Assembly: GCA_905178155.1 (NCBI GenBank)
Contig: CAJINV010000011.1
Coordinates: 767,982 to 831,981 of the forward strand
DNA from: Amoebophrya sp. A120
Taxonomy: Eukaryota; Protista; Dinoflagellata
Reading direction: 5' to 3'
DNA length: 64,000 nt
Shown: piece after piece, positions 16,705-45,815 of the stretch
How positions within the stretch are numbered: position 1 is the first letter of the stretch
Layout of the letters: the number at the start of each line of letters is the position of its first letter
The notes under the pieces: model-generated
Told to the model about the DNA's origin: nothing
What the model saw: only the letters and a program-made list of their open reading frames with translations
Database searches by the model: none
Position numbers and translations under genes: made by a program

Positions 16705-19700
16705 ATGTCGTCGCGAAAACGTAGGAAGAAGCTCCTGGCGCACTGGGCCAGCGTCGCGGCGAGACTGACAAGTTCTTTGTTTTTCCTTCACATCAGTAGG
16801 CCGTTACTGCACATCATGATGATGCTCTACTTTTTTCTGCATGTCCTTCTGAGTAGTCTGTATGACCACCTCCCGCCAGCACCAGCACTCGGAGTTGTAC
16901 ACGCCCTCACCACCGCGGTGGCCGAGGAGACCATGACCTTGGAAACCTACATCCGGAGGAAGGTGGAGTGCGAGTCTTGCCATTTAAGGCACTACGCCCC
17001 CCGGATTTTCAAGTGGAACTTCAAGTACAACAAGTTTTTCGGGCACCACGGCCAGTACAACTACGAGCTGCAGTCCTTGAGTGACACGCTGCAAAAAAAG
17101 CCCTTCGAGTTACCGTTTTCCGAAGTGGCGTTCGAGAAGCTGGTGAAAATTATCGACGACCCGGGATGGTGGGAGTGGGAGCGGATTAAAAACGTGAAAA
17201 AGTCCGTCGCCGACTGGCACCTGTTATCCTGATTAAAAACGTCCCCACACAACCAGAATCTTCAAGATGGGAAATCTGCTAGACAAATCACACAGCAGCT
17301 TTGGTTGTTTGGCACGACAAGTTTCTTGTCCTCGTAGTGTAATCCTGTTTAGCTAGCTCAGAAGCGTCACAGATCTAGCATTTCATGCTGATTTTAGCAT
17401 CACAAATCCCAAAACACGAATAGAGAAGGCTTCTCATAGGGCTCCGCATGAGAAACTTTTTTGGCATGCAATTGCATGACAACTCTGGGGAAGTAGTGGG
17501 GACGTTTTTACTCAGAATACCTGTTCCGAGACACCTACGACGGCATTCACTGGAGCAGGATCGCGTACGAGCTGGAGGTGGACAAAAACTGCGTGCGCGT
17601 GTGGCAGCCCTGGAGCGAGTGCTCGGTGACCTGCGGGCCCGGGGGCCGGGTGCACCGGTGGTGGCGGTACGCCGACCGGGAAGACCAGCCACCGACCGCG
17701 AGAAACTGCGGCCCCGAGCGGGACGCGGACACCCTACGCGGGGAACAGGAGGTGCATTTTGACGAGATCGCGCCGTGCACGAACTTCATGCGGCCGATGC
17801 CCCGGTGCCCGCCAAGGCCGGAGATGCCGGACGAGGGGCCCGACGACCTGGTGCATCCGCACTACAACGCGTTGAACCCCTACTGCGACGGCCAGCAGTT
17901 TGCCTGGCTGCGCTACAACTTCGTGAGCTCTACTGAAAACCCCGGCGCACTGGTCCTCGCGGCGGAGAGGGGTCAGCACAGGCAAAACCAAGACGGACAT
18001 CACGCAGCGCCGTACTTCACGTTCCCCCGGGGGGACTTGTGCGCGATCGACTTGTGGCAAAACGAGGTGTACTTTTACAATAACGTTGACATTCCCTCCT
18101 TGAATCGGAAGGCGTTTACGGACGCGCGCAACTTCAACCCCTCGGAGTATCAATTCTCGGTAAACCAAATTGTCGACCAGGCGGGACAGACGATCCGGGA
18201 GGACGGTTGGCCGATCCACTACCGGGAGACGCAGTACTCCTACTTTCGGTGCAAGCGGGCCCTAGAGTACGTGAACAAATTGGAACAGTACCTTTTCAAA
18301 GACACCGACCACAAAGACGAGGTGAAGCTGGTGCCCGCGCTGCGCCACAAGGCCCCGGTCACCGCCGCGGAGATGCAAACGGCGCTGACAAAAAAGGTCC
18401 AACAAGGCGAAATCGGGGACGGCGACGGGTCCGGCGTGGAGAGCCTGCCGCTGTTCCGGAACTTCCAGGTGCACGGTTATCTCAAGGGGAGGGAGATGAT
18501 GCAGTGGAAGTGCGAGAAGATCTGCGACTACTTACCGGAGTGTGTGTTGTACAGCTACCTGGGTCATCGGCCGGACGATGATCCAGAGCAGAATGATGAT
18601 ACAGGGGCCGACGAGAGGACGACCTCTCCGGACGACACCTCTGGCGAGGCCGGGGCGGCGTCGGAAGTCGAGAGCCAGGACCACTGGTGCTTCCCGAAAT
18701 CGAAGCGCAACGGCGGGAAGCAGGTGGGGCACAAGGAGGTGCGGAACTACCCGACCGGGCGGGGCGGGGAGGTGACAACCGACGTGCCGGTGGACAGTTT
18801 CGGGTCCCTGGGGTTCGGGGTCTGCATGCGCCGCGTGTGCGAGGATGAGCAGGAGCACGACATTGCCGTGGACAAGTACGGGCTGGGCTCTGAGGTCGTT
18901 TTGCGGTCCAAGTGCCAGAAGCCGATCCACTGCGAGCTGACCGAGTGGTACTACCCGAAAACCTGCACGAAAGAGAAGAACGTGGACTACTCGAAGCACT
19001 GGAAACTGAAGCGGCTGAAAAACGACGAGGTGCTGGAGCACAGCCGGGGGCAGGCCACGACGTCGCGGGGCCACCGGCGCAAAGTGCAGCGGTTGGAGGA
19101 GTGTCGCGAGATCTGCCGCCGTTCGGAACTGTGCGATGCGTACGCGTGGTGGAGGTTGGAGGCCGCGGCCGAGGAAGACCAGGGAAGGTGCAAGTTGCTG
19201 GAGCGCCGGGACGCGGACTCGCCGGGCGACTTTTTGGAAATGTGGAATGCGGACGTGATCAGCGGGGTGTGCAGTCAGCCGACCTGCTCGGCCGCTTGCC
19301 GCCGCGACAAGGACACCGCGCACGGCTTCAAGTACCAGGTCCGCGACATTTTGGTGCACCCGCAGTTTGGCGGCACGGAGTGCAGTGAGACGCTGCTGCA
19401 CCGGGACCGGTGCGAGGCCGACCCGGAGAACGACATCTGCCCGCCGCGGGCGCCCCAGGACGGCTGGGGGCTGCCCTGGGACCCGGACGGCACGGAGCCC
19501 TACGACAAGGCGTACTGCCAGGTGGACAGCGAAGTGACCATTCAGGGGAGAAAAAACCGGGACCTGTGCCTGCACGAGTCGCTCGACCGGACCGACGGCG
19601 AACTGGACTGCTGCGTCGACATGTACAAAATTGCGACGATGGGCTACCACCAGCCGGAACAGTGGTGGAAGGGGAAGGAGCAGCTGCCCTACAAGGAGCA

Positions 19701-22700
19701 GTGCGCGGACGGCTACTTCAACCTTTTCGACTGGACGCAGAAGCTGACGCGGCGCAACTGCGTCCACGATGGGAGCAACGACGCGGAGTTCACCACCGCA
19801 AATGCGCAGGCCGCGGTGTGTTGCGTCCCCCTAGGGCACACGTTCACCGACGAGTGCGAACTGTCCGACTGGCGCATGCCGCGCAAGGAGTGCGGTTACG
19901 AGCAGGACTGGGATTACTTCGGGGGAGACTTGCACGAGAACACCGCCTATTACACCATCACGGGGGCCGAGTGCAAGACGCTGTGCGAGTTAAAACCAGA
20001 CTGCACCGCCTACACCTGGGTCCACGATATTGACGACACCTGCCGGCTGAAACAGTTGCGGGGTGTGTCGGGTACTATCGATCCCGTGCAGGCAGTGAAA
20101 GACCCTTTTGATCTGAACTGGGAGACCGGACAGCGGGTCCACAGGGACGTCGGCGGGCAGTGCGCGGAGCAGTGGCCGTTTGCGTACCGGGACTACCAGG
20201 TGGTCACAAAACCGCCCTGCTCCAAGTCCTGCGGCGGGGGTCTCAGGTACTTCACGCGCGAGATCCTCCAGCACCCGCAATCCCTGGTCGACGAGCTGAG
20301 CACCGATTTGTCGCCCTACCGCACTTGTGGTTCTCTCCTAAAAATCGAGATCTGCAACATTCAGGAGTGTCCGACGCCGACCACGCCGACGACCACGCCC
20401 TATGAAATGCAGAAGTATCGTACTAGTATGAATTGCATTTGTACAAATTTGCTCAGCATTTACAAATTAAATTTGTAATGCGGATTTGCCTTAGGAACCT
20501 TGTAAAAATGCATAAATGCAATTAGTACGAGTGCGATACTTTTGCACAGGATACGCTCCGCCCGCCGATCACGACGCCGGCACCCGTGCCGTCGTCCACC
20601 ACCCCGGCGCCTACACCGGAGCCGACCCCTGTGGGGCCCGCGCCGGTGCTGCCGGAGCCCAGCGACGCGATGCGGAAGCTGGCGGCGCGGCCACCATATG
20701 AATTGCAAAAGCATCATAGTCGTACTAGTATAAATTGCATTTCAAATTTTCTCAGCATGAAAAATTGAATTTGTCATGCTGTTTCACCTTGGAAAGAAAA
20801 TTTGTCATGCATGCCTGCAATTTTAGTACGAGTACGATGCTTTTGCACAGGATACTCCGATGGGCTGGGCGAGCTGGAGCGCGTACGGGGAAGAGGTGGA
20901 CGCGGGGAAAATCACCCAGGTGTATCCAAGAAAAAAAGTGTGTAAGTAAGGTTAAGTCTGTGATGCAGGAAATTCTAAACTGTTTACACTTGTCTTTGTC
21001 ATGCTAGAGGTGCGTCATAGGCCACTTTCATAGGTGTTTCCACGTACTAGCTGCGCATGTCGGGTTACTTTCTATATGTAATGCAAAACGAATTTGTGAT
21101 GCTGATCTTCCGTACAAAGTTACACTTACACAGTTTTTTTCCTGGATAAGGTGCTGGAAGAGTTCAAGGAGGGGTCGGATTGGCACGACGCCGGCTACAA
21201 CCTGATCGAGATTAGCGACGGGTACCAGCAGTGCACCCCGAGTGAAAATCTCGCCCGCATGCACCCGGGCCGGTTTCACCAGGAAGCTACCGAATCGCGC
21301 ACCTTCGTTGGCACCACCACCACCAGCAGTACTTCTAGTACCACCACGGTGAGTAGCACGGTGACCACGGTGACCAGCCCGGCGGGGGTCGCCGTGTTCC
21401 CTCAGCCGGATTTGGACCAAATGTTCGACAGCACCGACGAGGGACACCTGAAGTGGCAGGATTTTACGAAGGGCAACGATCCCGGCGTGAACGAGTTTTC
21501 CCTGGACCGGTGGCAGGCGTACTGGTACGAGCGGAACCCACCGAACGACTACTACGGCCCCACGTTTTACCTGATGCAGCGCCGGTATAAATTGAACGCC
21601 CAGAGGACGATCCACCTAAACGCCGACTGGGACAACACGATGAACACATGGCTGAAGGGCACGGGGCAGAAGTTGGATGCTTCTGTATCCTGAGTAAAAA
21701 CGTCCCCACCACAGAGTTGTCATGCAAGTGCACAATGACAGGAACGTTTGTCATGCGTAGCTCCATGAGAGACATTTTCCAATCGTGATTTGGAATTTGT
21801 AATGTTGTAAACTGGATTAGAAAATGGCTTTCTCATGCGGCTTCGGCTTCCCTTGCCAGCGAGTACTACACAGCAGAGGAAAACTTGTCATGCACAGCTC
21901 CCAAAAAAAGGAGATTTGTGTTGCTAGATTCCCAACTTGACTATGGGGTGGGGACGTTTTTACTTTGGATAGTCTAAGAAACCGAAGCTGCTGACCGACG
22001 AGGACGACGACTGGGACGAGGTCATGACCCGGTACTATGCATTGCAAATATGCCTGGGTCTGGAAGGATGCAAACTTGTGATGCGCATTTTAAACGACAC
22101 AAATTACTATCTATTATATTCATGCGAAAAAAGAGGTCTACAGAGGGTAGACGAGAGGTGGCCGAGAGGTCAAAAAGAGGTCAAAAGAGGTCAAAAAGAG
22201 GTCGACAGAGGTGGAGAGGTGGCGCGGGAGGTCATTCGGGAGGGTGGCCGAGAGGTGGCGCGGGTATAGCGAGCCGAGCCGTTCACCCTAAAGCCGCGCC
22301 TATAGGGACCAGAGGGGGCCGAGAGGGTGCCAAGAGGGTAGGCGAGAGGGGGACAGAGGTGCCGAGAGGTTGCGCGAATAAGGGCGAACCTCTCGCGCAC
22401 CCTCCTGGCCACCTCTCGGCCACCTCTGTAGACCTCTACCGGCGAGTATAGCCGGACTATTAGCAAAACCTCTCGGGAGAGGTAAAAAAGAGGGTCTGCG
22501 AGAGGGTACAAACAGCCCGAATCCGCCCGGTATTCGGCCGATCTTCTGGGGATTTTTGCATCGCTTGGGCCCGCACCCTCTCGCGCCACCCTCTCGCGCA
22601 CCCTCTCGCGCCACCCTCTCGCGCCACCCTCTCGCGCACCCTCTCGCGCCACCCTCTCGCGATACCCTCTTGCGCCAGCAGTTCCGTCGGCCGGGAAGCC

Positions 22701-25700
22701 ATTGGGCGGGGGCGGGAGAGTGATCAACACAGGGCAGCGCGGTCCCCCTTGTGCTTCGGCACTTACGCCGAGGCGGCTTCTCTTTGCCCCCAAGCTTCGC
22801 TGCAGCTGCTCCCTGCGCATAGCGCCTAAAGGCGCGGGAAGCGCGCAGGAGACCCTGCGGGTTTGCATGGCGCAAAACGGCGACAGTATGTTCCTCGGGG
22901 GGGGGGCTGTCGCGCTGCGTCCAAAGCTCCTGGCGCGGCGTCCCGATCCGCAAATAGTCCGCCCCGCCACAACAGCCTAGCGCCCCGGCGTCAGCCGGGG
23001 CATGGCTGGTATCTGTCATGCAACATGGACAGCAAAAGTTCCCCACTTCTTATCACTGAAGGCGGGGATTTCTCATGCGGATTAGGCATTAGGAAACCTC
23101 CTCAAAACCTGTGATGCTGGGGCGGGCGTGCCAGACCTGCTTGGTCAGGCAAGAAAAGCATGGCAAACATCTGCACTCGTCCAGACCCAGACATATTTGC
23201 AGTTGATAGGTACGAGTGGGAAACCATTGCGCACAGAAAAGCCTTCTCCGATGCCGGTGTGCCTATTATACCGAAAGACCACTCGCACAGCATTCTCACG
23301 AAGGAGGCGGTAACGGCGCTGTGGGCAGAGTACTACGAGTACAAAAAACAGAACCCGACCGTTCACGTGTTTCCGGAAGACGCCGTGCAGGGCGAAACGG
23401 CGGGCTTCAGTGCGCAAGAAAGCGGACAGGCATCAACTCCCGCCCCGGGAAGTACTTCTAGAGAGCCAGGAGAGCTTCCCCAGGAGCAGGGAGGGACCAC
23501 CGGCGGCCAAGAAGAGCAAGATCCGGACTCGGTCACGCGAACCTACAACCTCCGGCCGGTGGAGTGGGACACAAGAAAATTCCCGGATGTCGCCTCCTTG
23601 GCGCGCACGACCAAGGAGAAGAAGCTGCGGCTGGGGTGGTTCGTGAACAACTGCATGTGCGTCGAGCATCCCGGGTTCATCCAGGACTGGCGGAGTAACT
23701 ACGATGCCGGGGTGGGGCTGGCGGCAGAGCTGCGCGGAGACCTGGCGGAGGTGGTGGATCACGATTTTGCGTCCCTCAAGATTGACACGTGCGGCGCCAT
23801 ATCAAATGCAAATATGTCTGGGTCTGGGACGAGATTGCGAGATTTGTCTTGCTAGTCTGGCAACCCAGATGAACCACGGAAAAACTTGTCATGCTGGGCA
23901 GCGCATTGCAGTGTGGCCATTATTCCCTTCCTTGCATCACAAGTTCCAGACCCAGACATGATCTTTGCATTCCATACGCCAAGGGGCACGTGCGAACCTG
24001 GGTGAAGGAGCTGGACGCGATTGGACAGCAGAGCATATGAGAGTGCACAACGCGTCGTCCCCCTCATTTGTATTGCATGAACAGCGACACTAAGCACCCT
24101 CACCTATGGAGCCTGTGCATGACAAGTTCTTCACGCGTGTATATCTAGTACTGTTTGGGCTCCTTCCCCTTCCGGAATCTGTCATGCGAACAGTACCACA
24201 GAGCAGCACTTGGATTTGGTATTTCGCATGACAAATGAAGCGGGGGACGAGGGAGAGTTGTGCGCTCTCATAGAGCACCATTCTGCAGCACAAGTCGCAC
24301 GGAAACGGGGACCCCAGACGTTTCCCGGCCCAGTTCGCGACCAGTTCGGGCGATTGTGCCTACCACGTCGCATTCACCGCGCGCGACATCCACGCGACCT
24401 TTCGGGACATCTACATGAACCTGCAGTCCGTGCGACTCCCAAGCTACGTGGGGCCCCACTGCTGGGCCAGCCCCGGGGAGTTGCAGATTGGCAACACGGA
24501 GCGGTACGTGTATATGCAAAGAGAAATGTGTTTTGCAGTATACACATTCACATTGTTTTGCAGGACCGGCAAGACAGACCACCTTTGTCATGCAGGAAAT
24601 GCTTTCAAATTCCATCATCGTTTCCTACCTACATTCCCTGGTGATCATTGCATTGCAAGTTTTCCCTATCATGCTGAAATTACAACAAATGTGTAACTGT
24701 CACACTTTTTTCGTGGGATAGTGTTCGATTTGAGCCAAGTGGGCTCGGATGGAGACGACACGCAAACGGAGTTTTCGTCGGTGGAGGACGAGACGCACTT
24801 TTATGAGACGAGTGCACAAGAACTCCCCCTCCCACTCATTCGTCATGCAGAACCCCAAATCCAGGTGCTCGTGCTGCCTTGTGGCACTCTTTGTATGATA
24901 GATTCCGGAAGCCCGCACAGCACTGCACTAGGCGCATGATTTTGCCATGCACAGGCTCCACGTGTGCTCGGGTTTGTATTGCTATTGCTGCTCATGCCGT
25001 ACAAATGAGAGGGAGGGGGAGTTGTGCACACTCATAACTTTGCGCTGTGGTGCATCACCTCCAGTCCGTTGGTACTCAGCTTTCCGCTGATAAAGCGCGG
25101 GGCGGCTGGTGGTAGTACGCCGGCAGCACCACTTCGCCACCAGCAAGTGATCGATTACGTGAAGCGAATCGTGATAAACAAGGTCGCAATTGCGATCGAC
25201 CAAATCCACGTGAACGACGTCGGGCGCCGCGTCTACGCCTGGGACGGCGACTTTGAAACGGAGAAAATCCGCTACGCTTGGGTGCAGCCCTGCCGGGAGG
25301 TCAGCGACGAGCACAAACGGGGTCGTTGGCGTAAAGACCCAACCACCGGGGGCGTCCACTGGGTGGATGGGATTTCGGGGGAGCGGTTTTGCCTGAGCTT
25401 TCAGACGTGGATGGACCACGCGCTGGTACTCGGTAAGAGGTGCAGGCCCACTCGAGACAACATCCGGGTGCGCCTGCCTATTAACTGTAATGAACAGCAA
25501 CCAGTACCACCTGCAGCAGTACCATCCGCACAAGCACAACAAGGAAGTCCGGGCGCGCCGGCGGGCAGCGGCTTTTTGGAGAAGGGTTCTATTGGAGGTT
25601 CTTCATCTTCCCCTATGGATAGTAGGACACCGACAGCGCCGCGAGAAGATGAACAGCAAGAAGCCGAAGCGCTGCTGCAGCTACAGGAAAAAAAAATCCT

Positions 25701-28700
25701 CGCCACAACCGAGGCAGCAAACGCCGCAGCACCCGCGCCGGCACAACCTTTGGGGGTGACCCCCGCGCCGAAGGTTGTCGAGAGAATCCGCTCCCCGCCC
25801 GTCGTGGGGGAGGCACAAAGAACCGTAACCACCACCTGCCCGCCGGGCCCGCTGACCGTCACTGCGGGCACAGGCCTCGCGCGCGACGAGCAAGTGATCA
25901 ATTTTCGGTACGGTCAAACCGCGAGTTGGGAGGAACCGGACGAGCGAAAGTTGACCTACGGACTGAGCGTTTCCCGCATGAACTTCAACCTGCCTAGCGA
26001 AATGTGGAATCTGGAGCGTCCAATGAACGACTGGCGGTTGACGCCCGCTGGACAACTGGAAACGCGCAAACAGTACAACCAGGTTTGCGGGTATGGAGGA
26101 AAAAACTGCTGCTTCACTGTAACAAGCTGCTTGTGATGCATACTAGGAGTAGAATCATGGGACGACACAGTCACAGACGCATTGGTCTTGCTACACATGC
26201 GAGACACCGGGTGGTTTTGAAACGTGTTTTCCCTTACTAGGAACAACGCATAGCAAGTTTTCTTTCTGATGCGTAACGAACTTGCAAAACTTGCTCTTGC
26301 AAAATCCTATAACATAGATACACCAGTGAAACACTTTTTTCTCCCGATAGCGGTAGCGCGCCTCCGGACTTTCATACGAAGGAAACGGAGGACCTAGTTG
26401 GCGACGCGTACGAGCTATCAAATGCAAATATGTCTGGGTCTGGAAGGTGGCAACTTGTGATGCTAACTCTGGAGTCTAAAAAAGTCTGTATTGCATGACC
26501 AGCAACGGGAGTCTAGTTCCTGCTACGCGGGGAGGGCATTTGTCATGCGGAGCAGGCATCAAGAAGCCCTCGAAAAATCTGTGATGCTAGGTCGTGCATT
26601 ACAGACATCCTGGGTCATACACAGTATGCATGACAAACCCGGCAACATTCCAGACCCAGACACATTTGCACTTGATACGAGCGGCGGCTGCGCGGGGAAA
26701 GCGGCAGGGACCCGCAGGACCGCTGTACGACGCAGCAGATCCTCCCGGACTCCGACCTGCCGGCCTGTCTGGTGTTGCGCCGATCCGCGCCGTGGCACCT
26801 GACCAGCCGGCAGATCTGGGCGAAGAAGCTGGGCCCGGCGGGGGTGACGGGACAAGACCTGTGGCTGGATTTGAAGCACCACACCGTCCTCGACGAGCTG
26901 TTCGGGTTCACAGAGGAGCTGAAGAAGACGAAGACGCCGGAGCGCGTCGCCGTGCTGATCGTGAACGCCGAGTTCGACGGGCAGACACTACCAAAACAGC
27001 GGCGCCCGCGAAGCGCGTTCCTGGACCCCGAAGAGACCGGGAACAACGGGGGCCTGTTCGCCTTTGGAAAACAGAACTACGTATCAAATGCAAAAATGTC
27101 TGGGTCTGGGAGATTGCGAGATTTGTCGTGCTAGTCTGGCATGACTCTGAACTCTGTGTTGCATGCCCGCGAAGAGCCCCTCCTCCTTGTCATGCAAAAA
27201 CGCAGGAGTTTCTCATGCGGAATAGCAACCTAGACCCATGAAAAAACCTGTCATGCTTGGCAGCGCATTATAGTGGGTTCACTCTTCCCTTTCTTGCGTT
27301 ACAAGTTTCCAGACCCAGACATATTTGCAATGCATACTACGGCGAGGTGTGGACCACGGGGTCGGGGGAGTTTCCGCAGTATGACCTGCTCAAATCGGTT
27401 ACCATCTCAAACGTTCCAATAGAATCTGGATTTTGTCTTGCATGAACAGCATGAGGGACCACGTGTGTAGAGGTGCGCCTTTCGCAATACAAATTTCGCC
27501 GGATTCTATATAAATCAATGCTGGGGCTTTGGGTGCCGAAACTTGTCATGCGCAAGCCTATGGGACTACTGTAGATCATGCACTTGTTCCTGCATCACAG
27601 ATTTCCATATTCCATTGTAACGTTTGAGATTGTAACACCTGAGCAAGTTATACGCAGCCGACGGAGTTTCAGAACTCCGCCGCCTACAAGTCCCGCGTGT
27701 GCAAAACGCGGGGGTCCTGTGCCGTTTCCATCAAGATCACCCCCTGCATGTGGAGCCGCATTTTCGAGCCGCACGTGCGCCTCGTCGATACCGACGTGGA
27801 CGATGTGGAAGCCGATAAGCCGTCGGTCCGGCAAGAGCGCGGCGAAGCGCCGGACGACGCCGATCTCATCCCGGGTCCTCTGACCGAGTGCACCGTCGAG
27901 CAGGGTGCGCATTTTTTGCGCGACAGTCAGGACTTCAAGGTCTTTTATGTGCGGAGTCGGCGACCGGTTCAGGCGGTCGTTTCAGGTTTGTACGAGGTGT
28001 CGTTGGGCCCCCGGGAGTCGGCCTTTTGGGTAGCGCAGAGGCTGCACCCTGTCGGGATGATCGACCCGATCCCACCGGGGCCAGGGCCCGGCCCGGGCCC
28101 CAACCCGAAGCCGCCACCGAGTGTACGGAAAACCATCCACAGCTTCTTCTGCTGGATCGACTTGACCAAAAACCGCCTGCTCTCCTGGCGCAACGACCCC
28201 CGGACGCACCAGGCGTCCGAAGTGCGGGTGGCGCTGGAACGCGGCACGCCCCCGAGCTGGGGCGACAAGTGGAAGGAGATCGTACGGGAAAAAGAGAAGT
28301 ACGCCATCACCAACCTACCGTGTACGAGCGACGAGGACTGCACCAATCGGTGTCGACAAAACTGGGGCGTGCCCCCACTGTACTACGACGGCAGCGCCTT
28401 CGGCCAAGCGGCCTTCTGCTGGCACGAGAAGGGCGAACCTTTCACGCTGTACAGCAACGCCGCCTACCTGCAGAAGCGGAAGCGGGGAACGTTGACCGCG
28501 GGCCAGGTGGAACAGTCGAAGGTGCATTGTCGGGACGAGTACGATTGCCGGCGGCGCTGCGTCGGCTACAGCGGGTCCGTGGAGGCCCCGGATCCGGACC
28601 TCGAGGCGGCCAAGTTCTCGCAGCTGGAGGCGTTGCGAACCCGGCCGGCCACGGGGCGATTGCGGCACTGCGTTCGGGAGGGAGCGGATGAGGAGAGCGC

Positions 28701-31700
28701 CGGGGAAGCCGTGGCGGACACGAGTTGCTACTGCGTGACCTACTCAGTGACCGGGAACAAATTGCCGCTGTGCAGCGCGGGGCACCGCGCGTTCCGCGAC
28801 CACGGCTACTACTTTGACTCGGAGACCAAACACATCCTGGGTGCCGGCAGCGGTGACTGCCTGATTTTGGGGGAGAAACGCGCCGGCCGGGACGCCTGGC
28901 CGGTTTTGAGTGTGAACTTCCGCGACCGAGAGCGCCGTCCCGAACTCGGCAGCAGGACAAGCACCGAGGCTAGTGCACAAGGAAGCACTTCTTCTAGCGC
29001 GTCCTCCGGGTTTGTGGAGCTCGGAACTACAACAGCCGTCGAGCTCGGAACAGCATCCGCGTTTTTCCAGCAAGGACCACCCTTTAAAAGGGAGGGGCTT
29101 ACTACGCAAGAAAAAAACTGTGTAAGTGTAAATCTGTGATGCAGAAAATGCAAAACAGTAACACTTGTCATGCTGGAAGTGCGTCATAGACTACTATCTG
29201 ATAGTAGTCTATGACGCTTACTAGTATCATACGTGTTTCCACTTACTAGCTGCGCATGACAGGTTTTCCCTGTGATTTAAAACAAATTTGTGAAGATGCT
29301 GCTCTTCCTACAAAGTTACACGTACACAGTTTTTTTCCTGGATACTTACCGTCTGGGGCGTTGACCCCACGGCGGCGGAAAAACTACTGCTTCGAGTAGA
29401 TATACCCCCCGCCGAAACGCAGCAGAAGTTGAAGAGTGGGCATTTGGAGTGCTGGAATGTGTGCGAGGATGTAAGCAGTCGGGACAAACAGCGGGGGTTC
29501 TGCAGCAAGTGCAAAGTGATCAGCGGTCCAGACTTCGCCGACTACACCGGCGCGTGCTGCCGGTACAACAAAAACACCCCGCAAGGCGAGCCACACACCT
29601 GGGACCCGGACGACCCCCGCGAGTGCCGCATCCTTGGCGCGCTGAAAGGCAAGGGGCCAGAAAATTTCCTCTCGAAATTGTATTGGGACTGGATGGACGA
29701 TCCAGACCGCCTTGCAAATTTTATATTTAACGTCGGCACGGTCTACAACAATCTAAAGGGCTACCACAGTTGCGTCGCGGTTCCCAAGTGGGTGCAAGAC
29801 ACCTGCCTGCGCTATGGGACTGCTCTCAAACGTTACCTTCGCAACTGTATACATGATTTTGGATGCAAAATTACCATCAGAACCGACACGATCAAGCTGC
29901 TTTGCGTCGTGACAAATTCTCGATGGGCCGAACAAGGGCTGATAATCTGTGCCAAATCTGTTATGCAAGACGCGCAAGGTGGAATCAGGTCCCCCCTTTC
30001 ACTTTTGCCATTCTTGCATCACAGAGTCATTGGTAACAGTTGTCGAGAATGTAACAGCTGAGAACGCCATATGCGCCCGAGCGAATGTAGTGCGGAGGGT
30101 TTGTGCCCCGTGTGCAAAACGAACATTCTGGGTGATACTGCCCCGCAGTACGCAAACCTCAAAGGGGCATGCTGCAAAAAAGGCAACAATTACGCCAGTG
30201 GCCATATGTGCAACAACGTGGTACCGATTCCCGGTGGTGATGGTCGTGCAAAGTACCGGTTGGCGGACCTAAAGTTCAAAGACGAAAGTGCGGAGAGCAG
30301 GGAGTTCTATGTTGCCGAGTGTGTATCAACTGCAAATATGTCTTGGCCTGGAAGGATGCAAGGTTTGTCATGCTTGTCTGGCATGACAATGATATGACTG
30401 CAGAGTCTGTGATGCGTGTCCAAGAAGCGACCCTTTTTCTTGATATGCAAAAACGCAGTGTGTCTTTGTCATGCGAAAAGGGCAACACTATCACTAAGCC
30501 GCGCAAATATTTGTCATGCTTGGCTTTGCATGAGAGACCAGACGATGACGAGCAGTCATCATTCACAACCTAGCATTGCAAGTTTCCAGTCCAAGACATA
30601 TTTGCAATGCATAGTGTGTGCTGGTCGACCCCGCGCCAGTGCCCGCTCCGGTTAGTAGTACAGCACCGCCAGGTAGCACAACAGCAGCGCCGGTCAGTAG
30701 TACAACAACGCCTCTCCCGGTCCCGGGGGAAGGAGAACAAACGCTCACCTCCAGCACAGAAGCCGCTCCGGTTCCAGCCCCGCCGGACACGAGCACCTCT
30801 CCGCCTCGGGAGCCCGTGCCCCACCATAATCTGGGGACGGGGGGTAGCACCAAGTGTCACCGGTGGCGCCCGCGCCGCGTCGACGAGGAGGCGTCGGACT
30901 CGCGGTTCGGGGTCTGGGCTTTGTACGCTGAAGACCCGAAGGACGCGCCTGCAGCCGTATCATTTGTAAAACTGTCCGCACCCCATAGTTAAGTTGTAGG
31001 CAAGTCTGCAACACAAATCTCGATGTTTTGGGAGTTGCGCATGACAAATTTCCATCTGCAGTGTAGTGCTGGTTAGCAAGTGCAGCCGCATGAGAAACCC
31101 AGCTTCTCATCCTGTTTACAGCATTACGAAGTCCAAAACACGATTGGAAATGCCATTCATGGCGATCATGCGCATTACAAATCGATTCCTGTCATTGCGC
31201 ATTTGCATGACAACTCTGGGGTGGGAACGTTTTTACTCGCAATAAGCCGCAGCAGGAGGTTCTACTTCCGGGGCGGGGCACCACGGTGTGCAGGAGGCGG
31301 ACGTGTTCAATCGATACTGCTTGGTTCTCTCGGTTCCCGACGGCACCGGGCCGGACTCGGAGGCGCAGATGGAGCTCCAGGGCTGTACGACTGCGGACGC
31401 AATCAACAAGAAACGCATGAAGTGGGAGTGGGAAGTGCTGCAGGAGATCACGGGGACGCTCCGCGTCGTGGAGGAGGACTTCTGTGTGGTTCCTTCCGGT
31501 ATCCCTGGCGCGTCGAAAGGCCAGCTGGCTGCCTGCGACGCGGTGGATCACCGCGACAGTGCGATATCAAATGCAAAAATGTCTGGGTCTGGAATGTTGC
31601 CGGGTTAGTCATGCATATTTTGCCTGACCCAAGATGTCTGTAATGCACGACCTAGCATCACAGATTTTTAGAGGGCTTCCTGATGCCCACTCCGCATGAC

Positions 31701-34700
31701 AAATGCCCTCCCCTCGAGAGACTCCTCTTGCTGGTCATGCAATACAGATTTTTTTTAGAGTCCAAAGTCAGCATCACAAGTTCCAACCTTCCAGACCCAG
31801 ACATTTTTGCATTTGATATGCGAAGCGGCGCGTCGAGTGGCACTGGGGCGGGCCGCCGAGCTTCCTGCTGCCGGGGTGGCCGCCCCTCCGGGACAGCCGG
31901 GGGCAGACGATGCCCGATGTGCACGGGGTGCGCTCGCTCGTGGATGTCGTGGAGCACGACGGGAAGATTAAGCATCAGGCCGACGACCACAGCGCCTGGA
32001 CGATTCTAACGCACCACCGGCACATGGAAGTGGACCACCACTTTGAGGCAACGAACGTGAACCCGGATCGGGCGGTCGAGTGTCTCGCCGTGGACTTGAC
32101 CCAGCCGATGACAATCGACATCGGGGCGCCGGTGAAGAGCATTCCGGTGGCGGAGGTAATGGGGGAGCAGCGGCTGTGCCTCGAGTGGGTCCCGGTGCCC
32201 GTGCCCGGGCTGCGCAACACCTACTGGCTGCAGGTGCGCCAGCAGGTGCTGCACCGGGTGCGCGACAAGCGGTGGAAGCAGCCGGCGCGCCTTTGTCTGG
32301 ACCGTCTGCGCCGGACCGGCGTAGACATGGTGTTAGCGCTGTGCGAGCTGTACAGCTACACCCTGCCCCGGGGGTTGCGGGACAACCCCGAAATGCCGCT
32401 GATCCCCCTGCCGATGCGGGAACTCGGTCCAAGCAACGACACGGAAACGGCGGCGCAGGTCCTGCGCCACGAGTTGTTCGACCGGCGGGGGGACCTAGAA
32501 CTCTTCCTCAGCGGCAGATCAGGAACCGAGGACAGCAACTACTACGCTTGGTCTTCGCAGTGGTGGCGGTGGGAGGCGGTGCAAGCGCACTACGAACCGC
32601 TTCTGGAGGTGAAACTGACCACGCCGCCCCCGCCGACCACGTGGACCTTTTCGACGACCCTCAGCTGGCCCGTGCAGGTGTCCGCGCACCGCCGCACCGG
32701 GTGTCGTGATTACACCTGCAAGATCCACCACGGGCAACGGGATTTCCTGTACTTTCTTGACGTGCCGGACATCGCCTGCGTGAGCGAAACGTCCCACGAG
32801 CACTCCTGCGAGCGTCTCTGCTGCGGACTGGTCTACTGCATGACGACCAGGCGAAAGCCCTTTGAGTACGGCAACGCGGCCGATATGCAGTGCAAAAGTA
32901 TCGTAGTCGTACTAATTGCGTTTATGCATTACAAATTTAATGATCTGTAATGCTAAGCCAATTTGTCATGCAATTTATACTAGTGCGCTGCTTTTGCAAT
33001 GCATAGCCGACTACGACTTGCAAAAGGACGTGCACGTGTTCCGGGACGCGCAGCGGGCGGCGGCGGAGCTTTATCAAATGCAAATATGTCTGGGTCTGGA
33101 AGAGTGCAGGAGTTTGTCATGGACAATTTGCGTGACCCATGAGGTCTGTGATGCATGCCCTAGCATCAGAGATTCTGCGAGGGCTTTTTGATGCTCATAC
33201 CGCATGAGAAATGCCATCTCCGCGTAGCACAAACTGCGCCGTCTTTGTTGTTCATGCAATACAGATTTTATGTCGAGTCCAAGGGTAGCATCACAAGTTG
33301 CAACATTCTTCCAGTGCAGACATATTTGCATTTGATAAGCTGCAACAGCACGCCAAGGAGCTCGGGTACGTGCCTATTTTGCCCCCGCACGACCGGTTCG
33401 GGGGGGTTGAGCACTACCGCCCCACGGACGTAGACTGGGACGAAGACTACGTAGGCTACTACACGGTGGACAGCCACCACGTGGTCTCACCGAGAGTTCC
33501 GGGGATGGCGGTGCTGCCCGACTTTTCGGACGACGCCAGCTCGTCCAGCACGGTGTTGATCGACAAATCCGGCTTCACGATGGGAGGACTGGCCATGGAC
33601 GTGGCCGCGGGGTTCCTCGGGGCCAGCGCCGCCCCCGATCTGGCGGAGAGGAGAAGACTGACGGGGCGGAGTCCGGATTTCCAAAACTGCGTCACGAATG
33701 CGGATCTGGAATATCCAAGAAAAAAACTGTGTTATTGTAACTCTCTTTTGTTGACAGCATCACAAATTTGCTCTACATGACAGAGAAAACCTGTCACGCG
33801 TGGCTTGTAGGGGAAAACACACATGAAAAGCGGACTTTGTGGTTAACTGGCATGACAGGCGCAACTCTGTTGCATGTTCTGTATTACAGAGTTACGCTTA
33901 CACTTACACAGTTTTTTTTCTTGCATATGGGAACGGATGGGTGTAAAAGGTCCTCCTACTTCACGGTGGAGGTGTTCGAGAGCTGCGACAAAAGCGAGAT
34001 CGATTTTAACAACGAGACGATCCGGATGAACCTGATCGACGATAGTCATTTGCACTACTGGACAGACGACGTGTGGTATGACGAGAGTACACAACTCCCC
34101 CTCGTCCCCCTCATTTGTATTGCATCGGCAGTAATAGAAACACAAGCGCACATGGAGGCTACGCATGACAAGTTAATGCGCGTAGTGTAGTACTGTTTAG
34201 CTTTAGGCTTCCAGAATCTGTCATGCAAACGGTGCCACAAGGCGCAGCACTTGGATTTGGGATTTTGCATTCCAAATGAGGGGGAGGGGGAGTTGTGCAC
34301 TGTCATATGTGGGTCAAGTACGATCGGGGCCGGTACGTGGACGAAGAAGACATCCGCAAGAACGAGCCTTACGTGCACCAGTGGCAGTGCCAGAAGTACG
34401 TGGGCTTTTTGCACCCGCCTGCCGAGTGGGACGCCGCGGTCGCGACGGAGCGGGCGGCCTTCTTGCGGCTGCAAAACCACAAGACGACCTTGCCGACGGC
34501 GTGGAAGGGTTTGTTCGACAGCCGCGAGTCGGGAGAGAACGCCGAGTGGCGGCTGGTGACGCCGCGCACCAAGATATCATGGGTAAAAACGTCCCCACCA
34601 CGACCCCAGAGTCAAGTTGGGAACTTAGCAACACAAATCCAGAAGTTTTGGGAGCCACGCATGACAAGTTGCCGTCCGCAGTGTAGTGGATGTTAGCAAG

Positions 34701-35371
34701 GGCAACCGCATCACAAATCCATCTGCTTATCCTGTTTACAGCATTACAAATTCCAAAACGCGACTGGAAATGCCTCTCATGGAGATGCGCACTTTTACAA
34801 ATCTTCCTGTAATCGCAAATCTGCATGACAACTATGGGGTGCTGGGGACGTTTTTACATAGGATACAAGACCCCGATCCAGGTGCGGGAAACCGTTCCGG
34901 ACATGTGGAGCAGCAACGAACTCGTGCCCCTGCGGGACTGCTGCGCGCACTATCCGGAGTAAAAACGTCCCCACCTCCCGCCCATAGTCAAGATGGGAAA
35001 TCAGCCTCCCTGCTACACAAATCAGCCAGCTTTGGTTGTTGCGCGTGACAAGTTTGGCCTCGTAGTGTAGTAATCCGGTTCAGCTTGTTCAGCAGCGTCA
35101 CAGATCTAGCCCACCAAGCTGGTTGGAGCATTTTTGCAAAATCCAAAACACGACTAGAAAATACGTGTCATGGGGCTCCGCATGAGAAACAGTTGGAGCA
35201 TGCAGATCTGCATGACGGCTATGGAATGGCGACGTTTTCACATAGGATACGCACGTCGCGCAGTTCATGTCGGACGTCAATCACCGATTCGGCCTGGACA
35301 ACTTTGAGCAGCATGTGGTCGCCAGCAACTGTGTCGTATTCTCCCGCAACCTCTGGGTCGAGCAGGATTAG
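16705..35371 (+). CDS. Giant (~3862 aa) probably secreted multidomain protein: TSP1 repeats, PAN/apple-like domains, GH27 alpha-galactosidase-like domain, ricin-B-like lectin repeats, Cys-rich C-terminus; 26 exons separated by 25 TIR elements
   Basis: Span 18,667 nt minus 7,078 nt (25 elements plus one TSD each) = 11,589 nt = 3863 codons, with each junction checked in frame. Motifs: WQPWSECSVTCGPGG, CSKSCGGG, ECREICRRSELCDAYAW, PPMGWASW, DAGYNLIEISDGY, SLKIDTCG, ARDI, HFALWCITSSPL, QIWAKKL. Start codon uncertain. Confidence 0.85.
17225..17519. mobile_element. Introner-like TIR element, family D
   Basis: TATCCTGATTAAAAACGTCCCCAC...GTGGGGACGTTTTTACTCAGAATA; TSD CCTGT. Confidence 0.92.
20401..20553. 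mobile_element. Introner-like TIR element, family B
   Basis: TATGAAATGCAGAAGTATCG...CGATACTTTTGCACAGGATA; TSD CGCCC/CGCTC. Confidence 0.88.
20697..20854. mobile_element. Introner-like TIR element, family B
   Basis: TATGAATTGCAAAAGCATC...GATGCTTTTGCACAGGATA; TSD CACCA/CTCCG; removal restores PPMGW. Confidence 0.88.
20923..21148. mobile_element. Introner-like TIR element, family E
   Basis: TATCCAAGAAAAAAAGTGTGTAAGT...ACTTACACAGTTTTTTTCCTGGATA; TSD AGGTG (GT-AG register possible). Confidence 0.92.
21686..21971. mobile_element. Introner-like TIR element, family D (opposite orientation to 17225 copy)
   Basis: TATCCTGAGTAAAAACGTCCCCACC...GGTGGGGACGTTTTTACTTTGGATA; TSD TTCTG/GTCTA. Confidence 0.88.
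22036..23208. mobile_element. Introner-like TIR element, family A, expanded by a nested 900-bp insert
   Basis: TATGCATTGCAAATATGCCTGGGTCTGG...CCAGACCCAGACATATTTGCAGTTGATA; TSD GGTAC. Confidence 0.9.
22110..23009 (+). mobile_element. Non-autonomous Helitron-like element nested in introner
   Basis: Inserted between A and T with no TSD. 5' end TCTATTATATT; 3' hairpin GCCCCGGC-GTCA-GCCGGGGC (22982-23001) then CTGG end; internal GAGAGG/CCCTCTCGCGC repeats. Confidence 0.75.
23800..23976. mobile_element. Introner-like TIR element, family A (short)
   Basis: Family A TIRs; TSD CGCCA. Confidence 0.9.
24036..24272. mobile_element. Introner-like TIR element, family C
   Basis: TATGAGAGTGCACAAC...GTTGTGCGCTCTCATA; TSD GAGCA. 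Confidence 0.92.
24513..24720. mobile_element. Introner-like TIR element, family E-like (degenerate)
   Basis: TATGCAAAGAGAAATGTG...CACACTTTTTTCGTGGGATA; TSD GTGTA/GTGTT. Confidence 0.78.
24802..25036. mobile_element. Introner-like TIR element, family C (opposite orientation to 24036 copy)
   Basis: TATGAGACGAGTGCACAAG...GTTGTGCACACTCATA; TSD ACTTT; removal restores THFALWC. Confidence 0.92.
26092..26349. mobile_element. Introner-like TIR element, family E-like
   Basis: TATGGAGGAAAAAACTG...CAGTGAAACACTTTTTCTCCCGATA; TSD GCGGG/GCGGT. Confidence 0.8.
26416..26677. mobile_element. Introner-like TIR element, family A
   Basis: Family A TIRs; TSD CGAGC. Confidence 0.93.
27082..27336. mobile_element. 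Introner-like TIR element, family A
   Basis: Family A TIRs; TSD CTACG. Confidence 0.93.
27380..27652. mobile_element. Introner-like TIR element, family F
   Basis: TATGACCTGCTCAAATCGGTTACCATCTCAAACGTT...AACGTTTGAGATTGTAACACCTGAGCAAGTTATA; TSD CGCAG. Confidence 0.9.
29103..29344. mobile_element. Introner-like TIR element, family E
   Basis: TACGCAAGAAAAAAACTGTGTAAGTGTAA...TACACAGTTTTTTCCTGGATA; TSD CTTAC. Confidence 0.9.
29813..30071. mobile_element. Introner-like TIR element, family F-like (degenerate)
   Basis: TATGGGACTGCTCTCAAACGTTAC...GTAACAGCTGAGAACGCCATA; TSD TGCGC. Confidence 0.8.
30324..30613. mobile_element. Introner-like TIR element, family A
   Basis: Family A TIRs; TSD GTGTG. Confidence 0.92.
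30958..31244. mobile_element. Introner-like TIR element, family D
   Basis: TATCATTTGTAAAACTGTCCGCACCCC...GGGGTGGGAACGTTTTTACTCGCAATA; TSD AGCCG. Confidence 0.88.
31565..31818. mobile_element. Introner-like TIR element, family A (reverse-complement relative of 26416 copy)
   Basis: Family A TIRs; TSD TGCGA. Confidence 0.93.
32884..33005. mobile_element. Introner-like TIR element, family B
   Basis: TATGCAGTGCAAAAGTATCG...CTTTTGCAATGCATA; TSD GCCGA. Confidence 0.9.
33072..33337. mobile_element. Introner-like TIR element, family A
   Basis: Family A TIRs; TSD AGCTT/AGCTG. Confidence 0.9.
33712..33927. mobile_element. Introner-like TIR element, family E
   Basis: TATCCAAGAAAAAAACTGTGT...ACACAGTTTTTTTTCTTGCATA; TSD TGGAA/TGGGA. 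Confidence 0.88.
34077..34307. mobile_element. Introner-like TIR element, family C
   Basis: TATGACGAGAGTACACAACTCCCCC...GGGGGAGTTGTGCACTGTCATA; TSD TGTGG. Confidence 0.9.
34575..34865. mobile_element. Introner-like TIR element, family D
   Basis: TATCATGGGTAAAAACGTCCCCA...TGGGGACGTTTTTACATAGGATA; TSD CAAGA. Confidence 0.92.
34951..35249. mobile_element. Introner-like TIR element, family D
   Basis: TATCCGGAGTAAAAACGTCCCCA...TGGCGACGTTTTCACATAGGATA; TSD CGCAC. Confidence 0.9.
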
Positions 35372-43780: not shown

Positions 43781-45815
43781 CGCCGTGCTTGTTCTGCTTG
43801 TTCTTGTTGCTAATTCGAGAACTGGACTCTTCATTTGTGTAGTCGTGCATGGCATATTAATGGCCAATGCCGGAAAAGTGTAAATAAATCACGTTTTCCT
43901 TTCTAATTCTCCCCTGCGACCACGTACTAGGCGTTTCTTGGAACCTGGTTCAACATCATCGACAATTGATTCAAAAGCCATTCTATATTATCCACAGGCT
44001 CGCCGTGACCAACTGCGTGGTGTTTGCCTACTCCATGCATGACCATTTTTATGCCATGAAAAGAATCGAGAAATAAAGCGGAAGACAACTCAATTGAAAC
44101 TGGTGTCCTGCACGTCGTGTCCTCTGGTATGGGCGGTACTTCTACGCTCTGATTTGTAGTTAAGCTTTTCATGAATGATGATGAACACATGCGGTGATCT
44201 CGTCGTCGTGACACCTTCAACCAGGTATTCTTGAAGCTTTCTGCCACATCAAAATAAGATAAAGCAAACATAGAAGACAGGGTCTCGTCCCTTCCGCTTT
44301 TTTGTTTCTGCATACCCGAGAAGGCAAACCGAACACCAGGGAGAACTCCGGGTCCTCTGGCGGTTCGGGAGGAGGTGGAGCGCAGGGAACCGCAACCGGG
44401 TCGCAGTAAAACGATGAGAAAGAAAGGAGTCATGTAAGTTGTTGTGGGCTCGTTTAATATCAAACGCGAGCAATTTTCTCAGCTTTTATTAAGTTTTCTT
44501 ATGAGATGTTGACTCCAATTGATTCTCTTTCTCACACATGAGGAGAAAGCGGACTTCTCGAAGAACAAGCATATTATTGTTTTTGCAGAATCGTCGATGT
44601 TGTCATTCCACGCTGGAACGAGGAGCAAAGCGTTATTTTTCGATTTCAACTTTTCAAGTCTTACTCTTAGCAACAAACAACTCAGATTTTCATTTTTTTT
44701 TGTTTTTCACTTTCACAAATCATGCTGTAAATTTTTTGTTTTGCCGATTTTTACAGATAGTACCTAACTTTTGTTTTTAGCTTACATTGTTAACATTTCT
44801 TCAAAACCTTTCCTTTTACTGTAACCAAAAATATTTGATCCTAGATGTTTTGTTTGCGCCGTTTCAGAAAAATGTACAACTACAAATTTTTTCGGTCTGC
44901 CTTTATTACACTTGCAATTTTATGATTGGATATTGGAATAATTCTGTACCTTAAACGTTATCTTGACTGCTATCAGAATCAGATTCAGAATGTTCATGGG
45001 TGATATTGAATATGGAGTATAAAAAGACCATTGCACCAATCATTTCTCTGGCGCCAGTTCTTGCATGAGTCTGTGGTGTGACGTCCGGTGTGAGAAACTT
45101 TTCCTCTGGTGATTACCAAACACAAGAAAAGCTTATCATTTTGGGATTGTGAAATAAACTTTGCACCCCCGGTTTACAGCGCAAGAGGGCAACAAGAGTG
45201 TGATGGTCTTTTTTTACTGAATACAGAATGCCTAAAGCCGCCTACTTACACTGTACACTATGGACAGCCGATGTTTCGCTGTTATGTTTGATTTGTATCT
45301 ACCGCATCTTTTATTTCTAACAAAGAATGCTGCAACAAGCCAATCTCCATCGATGACTCAAACAAACTGTACACTAAAAAAGGAGATCCTGAAAAAAGTT
45401 GGAACCAGGCGACTGCAATAGCACCAGGCTACGGTGGACTGACGCAAAAAGCAGGATTGACGCAAAAAGCAGGGGTTCGCTCGGTTACTTAAGTGCTTTC
45501 TCTCTGAAAACGTTCTAAGCCTGCCGGCGAAGCCGGTAGGTACAGGAATATCACAGACCGAGTGCTAATATGCTAGTGAGTGCCTTCTACGCAGCTGGCA
45601 AAATAAATCCCGCTTGGAGCTCCTGCCAGAGGTAGAAAGCGATTTTCTACAGAACGCATAGTGTATTCTTGTTTGAAAAAATAAAAATCGGACAAGGTCG
45701 TCAAGGTTCTTGAAATAAATCGAAACAAGATCTGCACCACAACTTCCGTAAAAGGATGTCCCTCGGATCCGTGTCGCTTTCGGACGACAATCAGCTAAAG
45801 ACGACCACCACGAAT

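What the first reader, a model, noticed from the sequence alone, without database searches (positions are those of the whole stretch)
17225..31818. Same element families sit in both orientations within one intact gene
Seen: the internal sequence of A-copy 31565-31818 is a near reverse complement of A-copy 26416-26677. The same holds for D 17225 vs 21686 and C 24036 vs 24802. All restore the frame of the same + strand ORF. Known: spliceosomal signals (donor, branch point, acceptor) are strand-polar. Inference: the removal signal is symmetric and lies in the TIR hairpin or dual-strand motifs.
Basis: partly seen in the sequence, partly recalled or inferred. Interest (0 to 1): 0.8.

Follow-up and report, generated by a model that had tools for sequence, protein, structure and literature searches.

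The report
Introns that splice in either direction
A long gene, likely from the marine parasite Amoebophrya, is interrupted by 25 small transposon-like inserts that sit in either orientation and are missing from likely RNA; the same three end letters are likely read as a splice donor at the upstream end and as a branch point at the downstream end, which would explain how such inserts become harmless introns without the usual GT-AG signals.

Summary
Observation confirmed. The three named pairs align better reverse-complemented (87.5 vs 65.8%, 68.8 vs 59.9%, 69.0 vs 59.6%). Removing 25 TAT...ATA elements plus one 5-bp target duplication each opens a 3,881-codon frame. Contigs of a run guessed to be RNA skip exactly element+5 at 11 elements, including opposite-orientation members of families A and E; copies 21686, 24802 and 26416 were not among the displayed joints. 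In 96 related loci plus the window, all 12 listed families hold both orientations (family A 86:101), and GT/GC-AG is possible for 26 of 471. The elements match published Amoebophrya A120 introners, so the class is known. Not found in print: the cut falls 1 nt before the element and 4 nt after it, and constraint is polar to the transcript. The third letter varies at 20 of 502 upstream ends but its mirror A at 1 of 502 downstream ends (p=2e-5). Best reading (0.5): symmetric DNA ends read as a relaxed donor (N-U-A) and a branch A at -7. No lariat or enzyme was shown.

The parts
16705..35371 (+). Host gene: first ATG to stop; 3,862 codons once 25 elements are removed; TSP1 and PAN domains in the second exon
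   Evidence: 3' half matched without substitutions by contig pieces
17225..17519 (.). Family D element, orientation 1, perfect 5-bp duplication
20401..20553 (.). Family B element (short), duplication 4/5
20697..20854 (.). Family B element, same orientation as 20401, duplication 3/5
20923..21148 (.). Family E element, orientation 1
21686..21971 (.). Family D element, opposite to 17225, 30958, 34575, 34951; duplication 3/5
   Evidence: junction not among rows shown
22036..23208 (.). Family A element, same orientation as 26416, carrying a nested insert of about 900 bp
23800..23976 (.). Family A element (short), orientation of 26416
24036..24272 (.). Family C element
24513..24720 (.). Family E element, orientation 1, duplication 4/5
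24802..25036 (.). Family C element, opposite to 24036 and 34077
   Evidence: junction not among rows shown
26092..26349 (.). Family E element, orientation 1, duplication 4/5
   Evidence: a contig piece ends at 26086
26416..26677 (.). Family A element, opposite to 31565
   Evidence: junction not among rows shown
27082..27336 (.). Family A element, orientation of 26416
27380..27652 (.). Element of a small family shared with 39198
29103..29344 (.). Family E element, orientation 1; upstream end reads TAC, and it is still skipped
   Evidence: joint 29097>29345
29813..30071 (.). Element of a small family; skipped
   Evidence: joint 29807>30072
30324..30613 (.). Family A element, orientation of 26416; skipped
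   Evidence: joint 30317>30613
30958..31244 (.). Family D element, orientation 1; skipped
   Evidence: joint 30952>31245
31565..31818 (.). Family A element, opposite to 26416 and 30324; skipped
   Evidence: joint 31559>31819
32884..33005 (.). Short element with B-type ends; skipped
   Evidence: joint 32878>33006
33072..33337 (.). Family A element, orientation of 31565; duplication differs at position 5 and the contig keeps the downstream letter
   Evidence: joint 33066>33338, 4 letters ambiguous
33712..33927 (.). Family E element, opposite to 29103; duplication differs at position 4 and the contig keeps the upstream letter
   Evidence: joint 33710>33932
34077..34307 (.). Family C element, orientation of 24036; skipped
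   Evidence: joint 34071>34308
34575..34865 (.). Family D element, orientation 1; skipped
   Evidence: joint 34569>34866
34951..35249 (.). Family D element, orientation 1; skipped
   Evidence: joint 34945>35250
42708..42976 (.). Element with A-type ends in the next gene with no flanking duplication (0/5); removal of element+5 (or any length equal modulo 3) still opens the frame

Best explanation
These are non-autonomous inverted-repeat elements with 5-bp target duplications that sit in both orientations inside coding sequence and are missing, together with five flanking bases, from likely RNA; a relaxed spliceosome likely reads whichever TAT end lies upstream as the donor and the first A of whichever ATA end lies downstream as the branch point. 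Shown: anatomy, both orientations, exact element+5 skipping in contigs, absence of GT-AG, and transcript-polar constraint on the terminal triplets. Supported by two junctions plus published dinucleotide counts: the intron begins one base before TAT and ends four bases after ATA, so it reads N-U-A-U ... A-U-A-N-N-N-N. Inferred: U at +2 and a purine at +3 are what remains of the 5' splice site; the invariant A at -7 is the branch nucleophile; the 3' junction is set by distance from it, with no AG; the stem from TIR position 9 inward brings the two ends together, standing in for U1 (reported undetected in Amoebophrya) while the poorly paired positions 4-8 let the termini open. The internal motif repeated on both strands is inferred to serve the transposase.
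For: Register: joint 33710>33932 keeps duplication position 4 from the upstream copy and joint 33066>33338 keeps position 5 from the downstream copy; junction stop codons arise for registers 0 and 1 (3 and 1 of 155 mismatched duplications) and for none of registers 2-5; all nine predominant non-canonical pairs listed for A120 have T second (PMC7789003 Table S4). Polarity, n=502: departures from T,A,T at the upstream end 0, 2, 20; at the mirror positions of the downstream end 5, 6, 1 (position 3 p=2.1e-5; position 1 vs 3 Fisher p=9e-5). It holds at stricter strand calls (14:1 of 278), on both contig strands (12 and 8), in 16 loci, among copies at most about 76% alike, and in both family orientations. 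Both upstream +3 changes are A to G. A nearest-neighbour test over 30 positions gives p=1.2e-4 at position 3. Mutational strand bias runs the other way in the internal motif (T>C 42 vs A>G 71 on the sense strand). 12 of 13 resolvable elements with duplication 0-2/5 favour removal of 5 extra bases modulo 3. Precedent: Giardia introns use VTATGTT and a branch point fused at fixed distance to the 3' end (PMC6679479). U2, U4, U5, U6 and 83 of 89 spliceosomal proteins are reported in A120 (PMC7789003).
Against: No lariat, branch point or spliceosome dependence was observed. The letters before the -7 A do not match the U2 branch consensus (position -9 is T 42%, G 42%, C 16%), there is no excess of G at +1 over phase-matched expectation (173 vs 176, p=0.23) and no preference for G at +5 (92 vs 88), and no coupling between +1 and -1 (p=0.13). 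By established spliceosome structure the second step normally needs a +1/-1 pair; how it would work here is unexplained. The downstream T and last A are also conserved at 99%, more than a bare branch A needs. The register rests on two junctions in assembled contigs of one run whose RNA status is a guess; composition and codon-likelihood tests of the register were uninformative. Positions 7 and 30 also show weaker polarity (p=0.015, 0.004) that this model does not explain. A polar protein enzyme would give the same conservation pattern.
Confidence: 0.5

Rival explanations
1. A non-spliceosomal protein endonuclease and ligase recognises the terminal RNA stem and its TAT/ATA letters and cuts 1 nt before and 4 nt after it, as proposed for euglenid nonconventional introns; the polar constraint reflects asymmetric protein contacts.
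For: All 43 folded elements close a terminal stem on either strand (mean z -6.2 against 12 shuffles each; z -7.9 and -10.5). No AG, no pyrimidine tract (0.53 vs 0.54), CTRAY in 3 of 43. Euglena introns have a similar offset code, N3CDG ... CHG N5-6 (PMC12501133 abstract), and are excised as circles (PMC11282704 passage).
Against: The two least variable letters are U at +2 and an A near the 3' end, the two chemical landmarks of spliceosomal introns. Changes at +4 that break the pair with the -7 A are tolerated 20 times, so pairing there is not what is selected. No wobble preference for the transcribed strand (327:306). No candidate enzyme is known to me.
Confidence: 0.3
2. The internal motif (consensus AAWYTGTNATGC, about five copies per element on both strands) is the removal signal, binding a splicing factor whichever way the element lies.
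For: 205 hits in 10,181 element bases vs 4 in 11,748 exon bases, 101 forward and 104 reverse; 693 vs 681 in the large set.
Against: No polarity in position or score relative to the transcript (p=0.91 and 0.57). Same-strand copies are spaced 31-33 bp in 396 pairs, the top spacing in the five largest families, with further peaks near 64 and 93: whole turns of B-DNA, which fits a DNA-binding transposase better than single-stranded RNA (inference). My detection required the motif, so its dispensability was not tested.
Confidence: 0.1
3. The elements are cut out of DNA, as ciliate internal eliminated sequences are, before transcription; symmetry then needs no RNA explanation.
For: TA-bounded inverted ends and helically phased motifs are DNA-type signals. 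Run X1 is only guessed to be RNA and no DNA run was laid.
Against: A DNA enzyme acting on a symmetric element should not constrain letters according to the host's transcription direction. PMC7789003 defines these junctions by RNA-seq against genomic DNA of the same strains (passages). Amoebophrya has no separate somatic nucleus (recalled, not from a call).
Confidence: 0.06
4. Each orientation carries or recruits its own conventional GT-AG signals, as in Polarella and Aureococcus introners.
For: Both-orientation introners with canonical sites are described (10.1101/2020.10.14.339549 passages). Families B, D and E lean to one orientation (30:49, 29:12, 25:10; uncorrected p 0.04, 0.012, 0.017), as Polarella classes do.
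Against: GT-AG or GC-AG is available at any register for 2 of 25 elements in this gene and 26 of 471 overall; none of the 11 skipped elements has it.
Confidence: 0.04

Closest known systems
Amoebophrya A120 introner elements (Farhat et al. 2021, PMC7789003; read: abstract, sections 10, 11, 16, passages, supplement passages incl. Table S4; figures not seen)
   Same: Inverted repeats starting TAT, seven looser letters, then AAA; short direct repeats over the junction; about 240 nt; non-canonical junctions; hairpin proposed to join exon ends; U1 undetected.
   Different: The paper leaves the border position unknown and the mechanism open. Word searches found 'strand' 0 times and 'orientation' only for genes in text and supplement, and 'branch point' 0 times.
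Amoebophrya A120 introner family 38, integrase-like TIR transposon (Gozashti et al. 2025, PMC12130899; read: passages and rows of supplement files 1, 7, 8, 9; files 13-14 not searched)
   Same: [quoted passage not shown]
   Different: About 810 bp with reading frames; the elements here are 120-330 bp without them. Sequence homology to family 38 was not tested. The paper's filter compared introns 5' with 5' only, so it does not address orientation.
Polarella glacialis and Aureococcus both-orientation introners (Roy et al. preprint 10.1101/2020.10.14.339549, passages; Huff et al. 2016 not held, seen only as cited)
   Same: DNA-transposon introners that make introns in either orientation, with a lean to one.
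   Different: Those use GT/GC/GA and AG sites drawn from a constrained duplication or the element; here the duplication is nearly free in sequence and no AG is used.
Euglenid nonconventional introns (PMC12501133 passages; PMC11282704 passages)
   Same: MITE-like origin, terminal pairing, short unequal overhangs outside the stem, no GT-AG.
   Different: Different letters (CAG/CTG), overhangs 3 and 5-6 nt, purine at the next exon start, circular products; 'orientation' does not occur in either text.
Giardia and Trichomonas spliceosomal introns (PMC6679479 passages)
   Same: 5' site VTATGTT with a relaxed first base; branch A at a fixed short distance from the 3' junction; internal pairing that brings the ends together.
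   Different: They keep a full branch consensus and a terminal AG and are not mobile or reversible.

Membership tests
Amoebophrya A120-type introner element | Inverted repeat starting TAT, 7 looser bases, then three A | tested here: met
   of 471 upstream ends T 471, A 471, T 459; A at 11-13 in 414, 431, 437 (positions 1-2 were required by that search); family C ends lack the A run
Amoebophrya A120-type introner element | Direct repeat of 3-5 nt over the junction | tested here: met
   exact 5-bp duplication in 32 of 46 window elements and 332 of 511 in loci; none at 4, 6 or 7 bp
Amoebophrya A120-type introner element | Repeated in families | tested here: met
   505 of 549 cluster into 14 families
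Amoebophrya A120-type introner element | Removed from transcripts at non-canonical junctions | tested here: met
   11 exact element+5 skips among 15 of 36 joints shown, in contigs of a run guessed to be RNA
Amoebophrya A120-type introner element | Host organism is Amoebophrya | tested here: inconclusive
   no genome held, run names coded, no homologous protein found; inferred from the element signature only
Non-autonomous TIR DNA transposon (MITE) | TIRs, fixed-length target duplication, no coding capacity | tested here: met
Non-autonomous TIR DNA transposon (MITE) | Autonomous partner with matching ends | not tested
   none among 9 elements over 420 bp (one was a false call inside a coding region); family 38 is a published candidate
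U2-type spliceosomal intron | GT/GC donor and AG acceptor | tested here: not met
   possible in 26 of 471
U2-type spliceosomal intron | Branch consensus and pyrimidine tract | tested here: not met
   CTRAY 3 of 43 sense vs 6 antisense; pyrimidines 0.53 vs 0.54; only a lone invariant A at -7
U2-type spliceosomal intron | Lariat intermediate and snRNP dependence | not testable with these tools
   no raw reads cover the gene
Euglenid-type nonconventional intron | Terminal stem with CDG/CHG code and purine at next exon start | tested here: not met
   stem present but letters are TAT/ATA and the next exon base is unbiased, A 28 C 23 G 32 T 17%
Ciliate-type internal eliminated sequence | Excision from DNA leaving one TA | tested here: not met
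   both TA are removed with the element and one 5-bp copy remains; DNA-level removal as such was not tested

The most novel reading that the evidence does not exclude
A spliceosome that has given up G+1 and the terminal AG reads one self-complementary code: TAT upstream is the donor, the first A of ATA downstream is the branch point, and the acceptor is counted six bases on. Any element with these ends becomes a seamless intron at any site and in either orientation, which would make it a general way for a transposon family to be neutral in genes.
Probability: 0.45. Interest if true: 0.85.

Novelty: new variant of a known kind. Interest (0 to 1): 0.64.

Why it matters
How tens of thousands of non-canonical Amoebophrya introns are removed was left open in 2021 (PMC7789003) and I found no later paper on it. 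The elements themselves are known. What this adds is a fixed junction, proof that orientation and the duplication sequence hardly matter, and two named nucleotides (U+2, A-7) whose constraint follows the direction of transcription. That turns the open question into direct tests: look for lariats at -7 in existing RNA reads, and mutate the two letters. If spliceosomal, it marks how far splice-site rules can relax; if not, it points to an unknown RNA excision enzyme. The 1+4 rule would also fix gene annotation in this lineage.

Tried and rejected
No whole genome is held, so the genome-wide tally was replaced by loci from one metagenome-collection scan. No listed run is on record as an RNA holder. 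Raw RNA runs X6-X8 cover no exon of this gene, so they say nothing on splicing or efficiency. A second read lay over 20300-27000 gave no result, so the junctions of 21686, 24802 and 26416 and a DNA control remain unseen. A search for a longer annotated protein with the second exon found none at E<=0.001 among 3,600 candidates (weak evidence). G-U wobble test for RNA-level stem selection: null (37:43 in the window, 327:306 overall). Sense vs antisense folding energy: no difference (p=0.6). Strong/weak and codon-likelihood tests of which duplication copy is exonic: uninformative. Predicting canonical introns without RNA gave noise (90 calls, flat logos) and was discarded. Rfam: 0 matches in the window. 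Three look-ups of earlier scan notes returned nothing. Huff et al. 2016 is not held. The diplonemid paper PMC12621601 (passages) has no statement on orientation.
Full report
What is there. Between 16600 and 35400 lie 25 elements of 122-299 bp (one of 1,173 bp with a nested insert) that begin TAT, end ATA, have terminal inverted repeats of about 25-40 bp and are flanked by a 5-bp duplication. Of 46 such elements first listed in the window, 32 have an exact 5-bp duplication and none an exact one of 4, 6 or 7 bp. Removing each element with five extra bases gives one stop-free + strand frame of 3,881 codons, with TSP1 and PAN domains in the second exon (three exons scanned).

Are both orientations removed? 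Contigs of run X1, whose RNA status is a guess, match exons without substitutions in the 8 pieces listed and skip exactly element+5 at 29103, 29813, 30324, 30958, 31565, 32884, 33072, 33712, 34077, 34575 and 34951; these are 11 of the 15 joints displayed out of 36. By core homology 30324 is opposite to 31565 and 33072, and 33712 is opposite to 29103. So both orientations are skipped in two families. Raw RNA runs X6-X8 do not cover the exons, so efficiency was not measured.

More copies. A scan with one family A end found 102 loci; 100 were in the script box. I dropped 4 near-duplicates and trimmed two overlaps, leaving 96 loci of 527 kb with 511 first-pass elements. 33 with a duplication under 3/5 were set aside, a second pass added others, and host strand was called with a codon model trained on this gene: 471 of 559 confident, neighbours agreeing 371 to 15. 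Family A is over-represented by the search, but the search is blind to host strand. 505 of 549 elements clustered into 14 families with no inconsistent orientation edge; all 12 listed families hold both orientations: A 86:101, B 30:49, E 25:10, D 29:12, a fifth 14:18. The leans in B, D and E are weak (uncorrected p 0.012-0.042). The best hit of 159 of 323 elements is in the opposite orientation.

No conventional signals. GT-AG or GC-AG is possible at any register in 2 of 25 elements here and 26 of 471 overall. CTRAY occurs in the last 62 nt of 3 of 43 elements, against 6 on the other strand, and there is no pyrimidine tract.

Where the cut falls. At 33712 the two duplication copies differ at position 4 and the contig keeps the upstream letter; at 33072 they differ at position 5 and it keeps the downstream letter. 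With one register, the intron starts 1 nt before TAT and ends 4 nt after ATA. In agreement, registers 0 and 1 create junction stops in 3 and 1 of 155 mismatched cases and registers 2-5 in none, and the nine commonest non-canonical pairs published for A120 all have T second. Two other tests of the register were uninformative. The duplication is not the guide: of 17 elements with 0-2 matching bases, 13 were resolvable and 12 favoured five extra bases modulo 3.

Symmetric in DNA, polar in use. After a search that left the terminal triplets free and removal of one mis-registered call, 502 confident elements remain. Departures at the upstream T, A, T number 0, 2, 20; at their mirror positions downstream 5, 6, 1. 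The contrast at position 3 (p=2.1e-5) survives stricter strand calls, spans 16 loci, both contig strands and both family orientations, and involves copies at most about 76% alike. Among six less certain elements with departures, five fit the pattern and one has a changed upstream T with an uncertain strand call. Of 30 positions, 3 is the strongest; 7 and 30 show weaker, unexplained polarity. Mutational strand bias does not account for it. In intron numbering the least variable letters are U+2 and A-7, and both changes at +3 are to G.

Hairpin and motifs. All 43 folded elements form a terminal stem on either strand with no energy difference between strands. Positions 9-14 pair in 387-441 of 471 but positions 4-8 in only 190-349, and wobbles do not favour the transcribed strand. 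The internal motif is about 60-fold denser in elements than in exons, equal on both strands and without positional polarity; same-strand copies lie 31-33 bp apart in the five largest families. I read it as transposase binding sites (inference; family members share ancestry, so the pairs are not independent).

Mechanism. The pattern fits a relaxed spliceosomal intron: donor N-U-A, branch A at -7, acceptor by distance, ends joined by the stem (0.5). Giardia's VTATGTT donor and fixed branch-to-acceptor spacing are a precedent. Against it: no branch consensus around the A, no G preference at +1 or +5, no +1/-1 coupling, and no lariat seen. A Euglena-like protein enzyme acting on the stem (0.3), the internal motifs (0.1), DNA excision (0.06) and conventional sites (0.04) are the rivals.

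Known and new. The anatomy matches Amoebophrya A120 introners, and a published A120 family with an integrase-like frame has 5-bp duplications and TA termini. The organism is inferred from this match, not shown. Introners that work in both orientations are known from Polarella, but with canonical sites. In searches and in the passages read I found no orientation tally, fixed register or polar constraint for these elements; figures and some supplements were not visible. The class is known; the reading of its ends is the new part.

Noticed in passing
window about 22100-23010, and L015 about 3917-4788: A repeat-rich insert of about 900 bp sits inside a family A element here and, reversed and 79-86% alike, inside a family D element in L015; no clear duplication or inverted ends. 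A second mobile element that lands in introners.
   Followed up: partly
window 49790-53692 (-): 1,300-codon frame with RNase H, integrase zinc-binding and integrase core domains: an LTR retrotransposon pol. A 300-bp direct repeat at 54273-54572 and 56049-56348 (99%) lies upstream of it.
   Followed up: partly
all 503 confident elements: Junction phases at the 1+4 register are 223, 130, 150 for phases 0, 1, 2; 10, 3, 12 in this gene. The excess of phase 0 centres the duplication on a whole codon; unexplained.
   Followed up: no
reads of X6 and X8 on window 31770-31819, 17496-17519, 21118-21141, 29232-29273, 34982-35002: Raw RNA reads carry element ends joined to sequence from other loci (65-340 reads each), one with an intact downstream end and one lacking its last bases: some copies or fragments stay in transcripts elsewhere.
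   Followed up: no
window 37841-43780 (+): A second gene holds 14 more elements of the same families, both orientations of A and B, beside GT...AG-bounded AT-rich stretches that look like ordinary introns (for example near 41220 and 43510; read).
   Followed up: partly
window 12917-13150: Family C element whose downstream end reads ATC; removal of element+5 opens the frame.
   Followed up: yes
families B, D, E: Weak lean to one orientation (30:49, 29:12, 25:10), which could reflect unequal removal efficiency.
   Followed up: no
window 45011-45223: An AT-rich TAT...ATA inverted repeat without the internal motif and outside an evident coding frame; may be an old or unrelated element.
   Followed up: no
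second letter of the termini, loci L029, L043, L048, L050, L073, L075: 6 of 8 changes at the second letter give TGT or ACA ends, the ends typical of integrase-type transposons (recalled); also simply the commonest kind of substitution.
   Followed up: no
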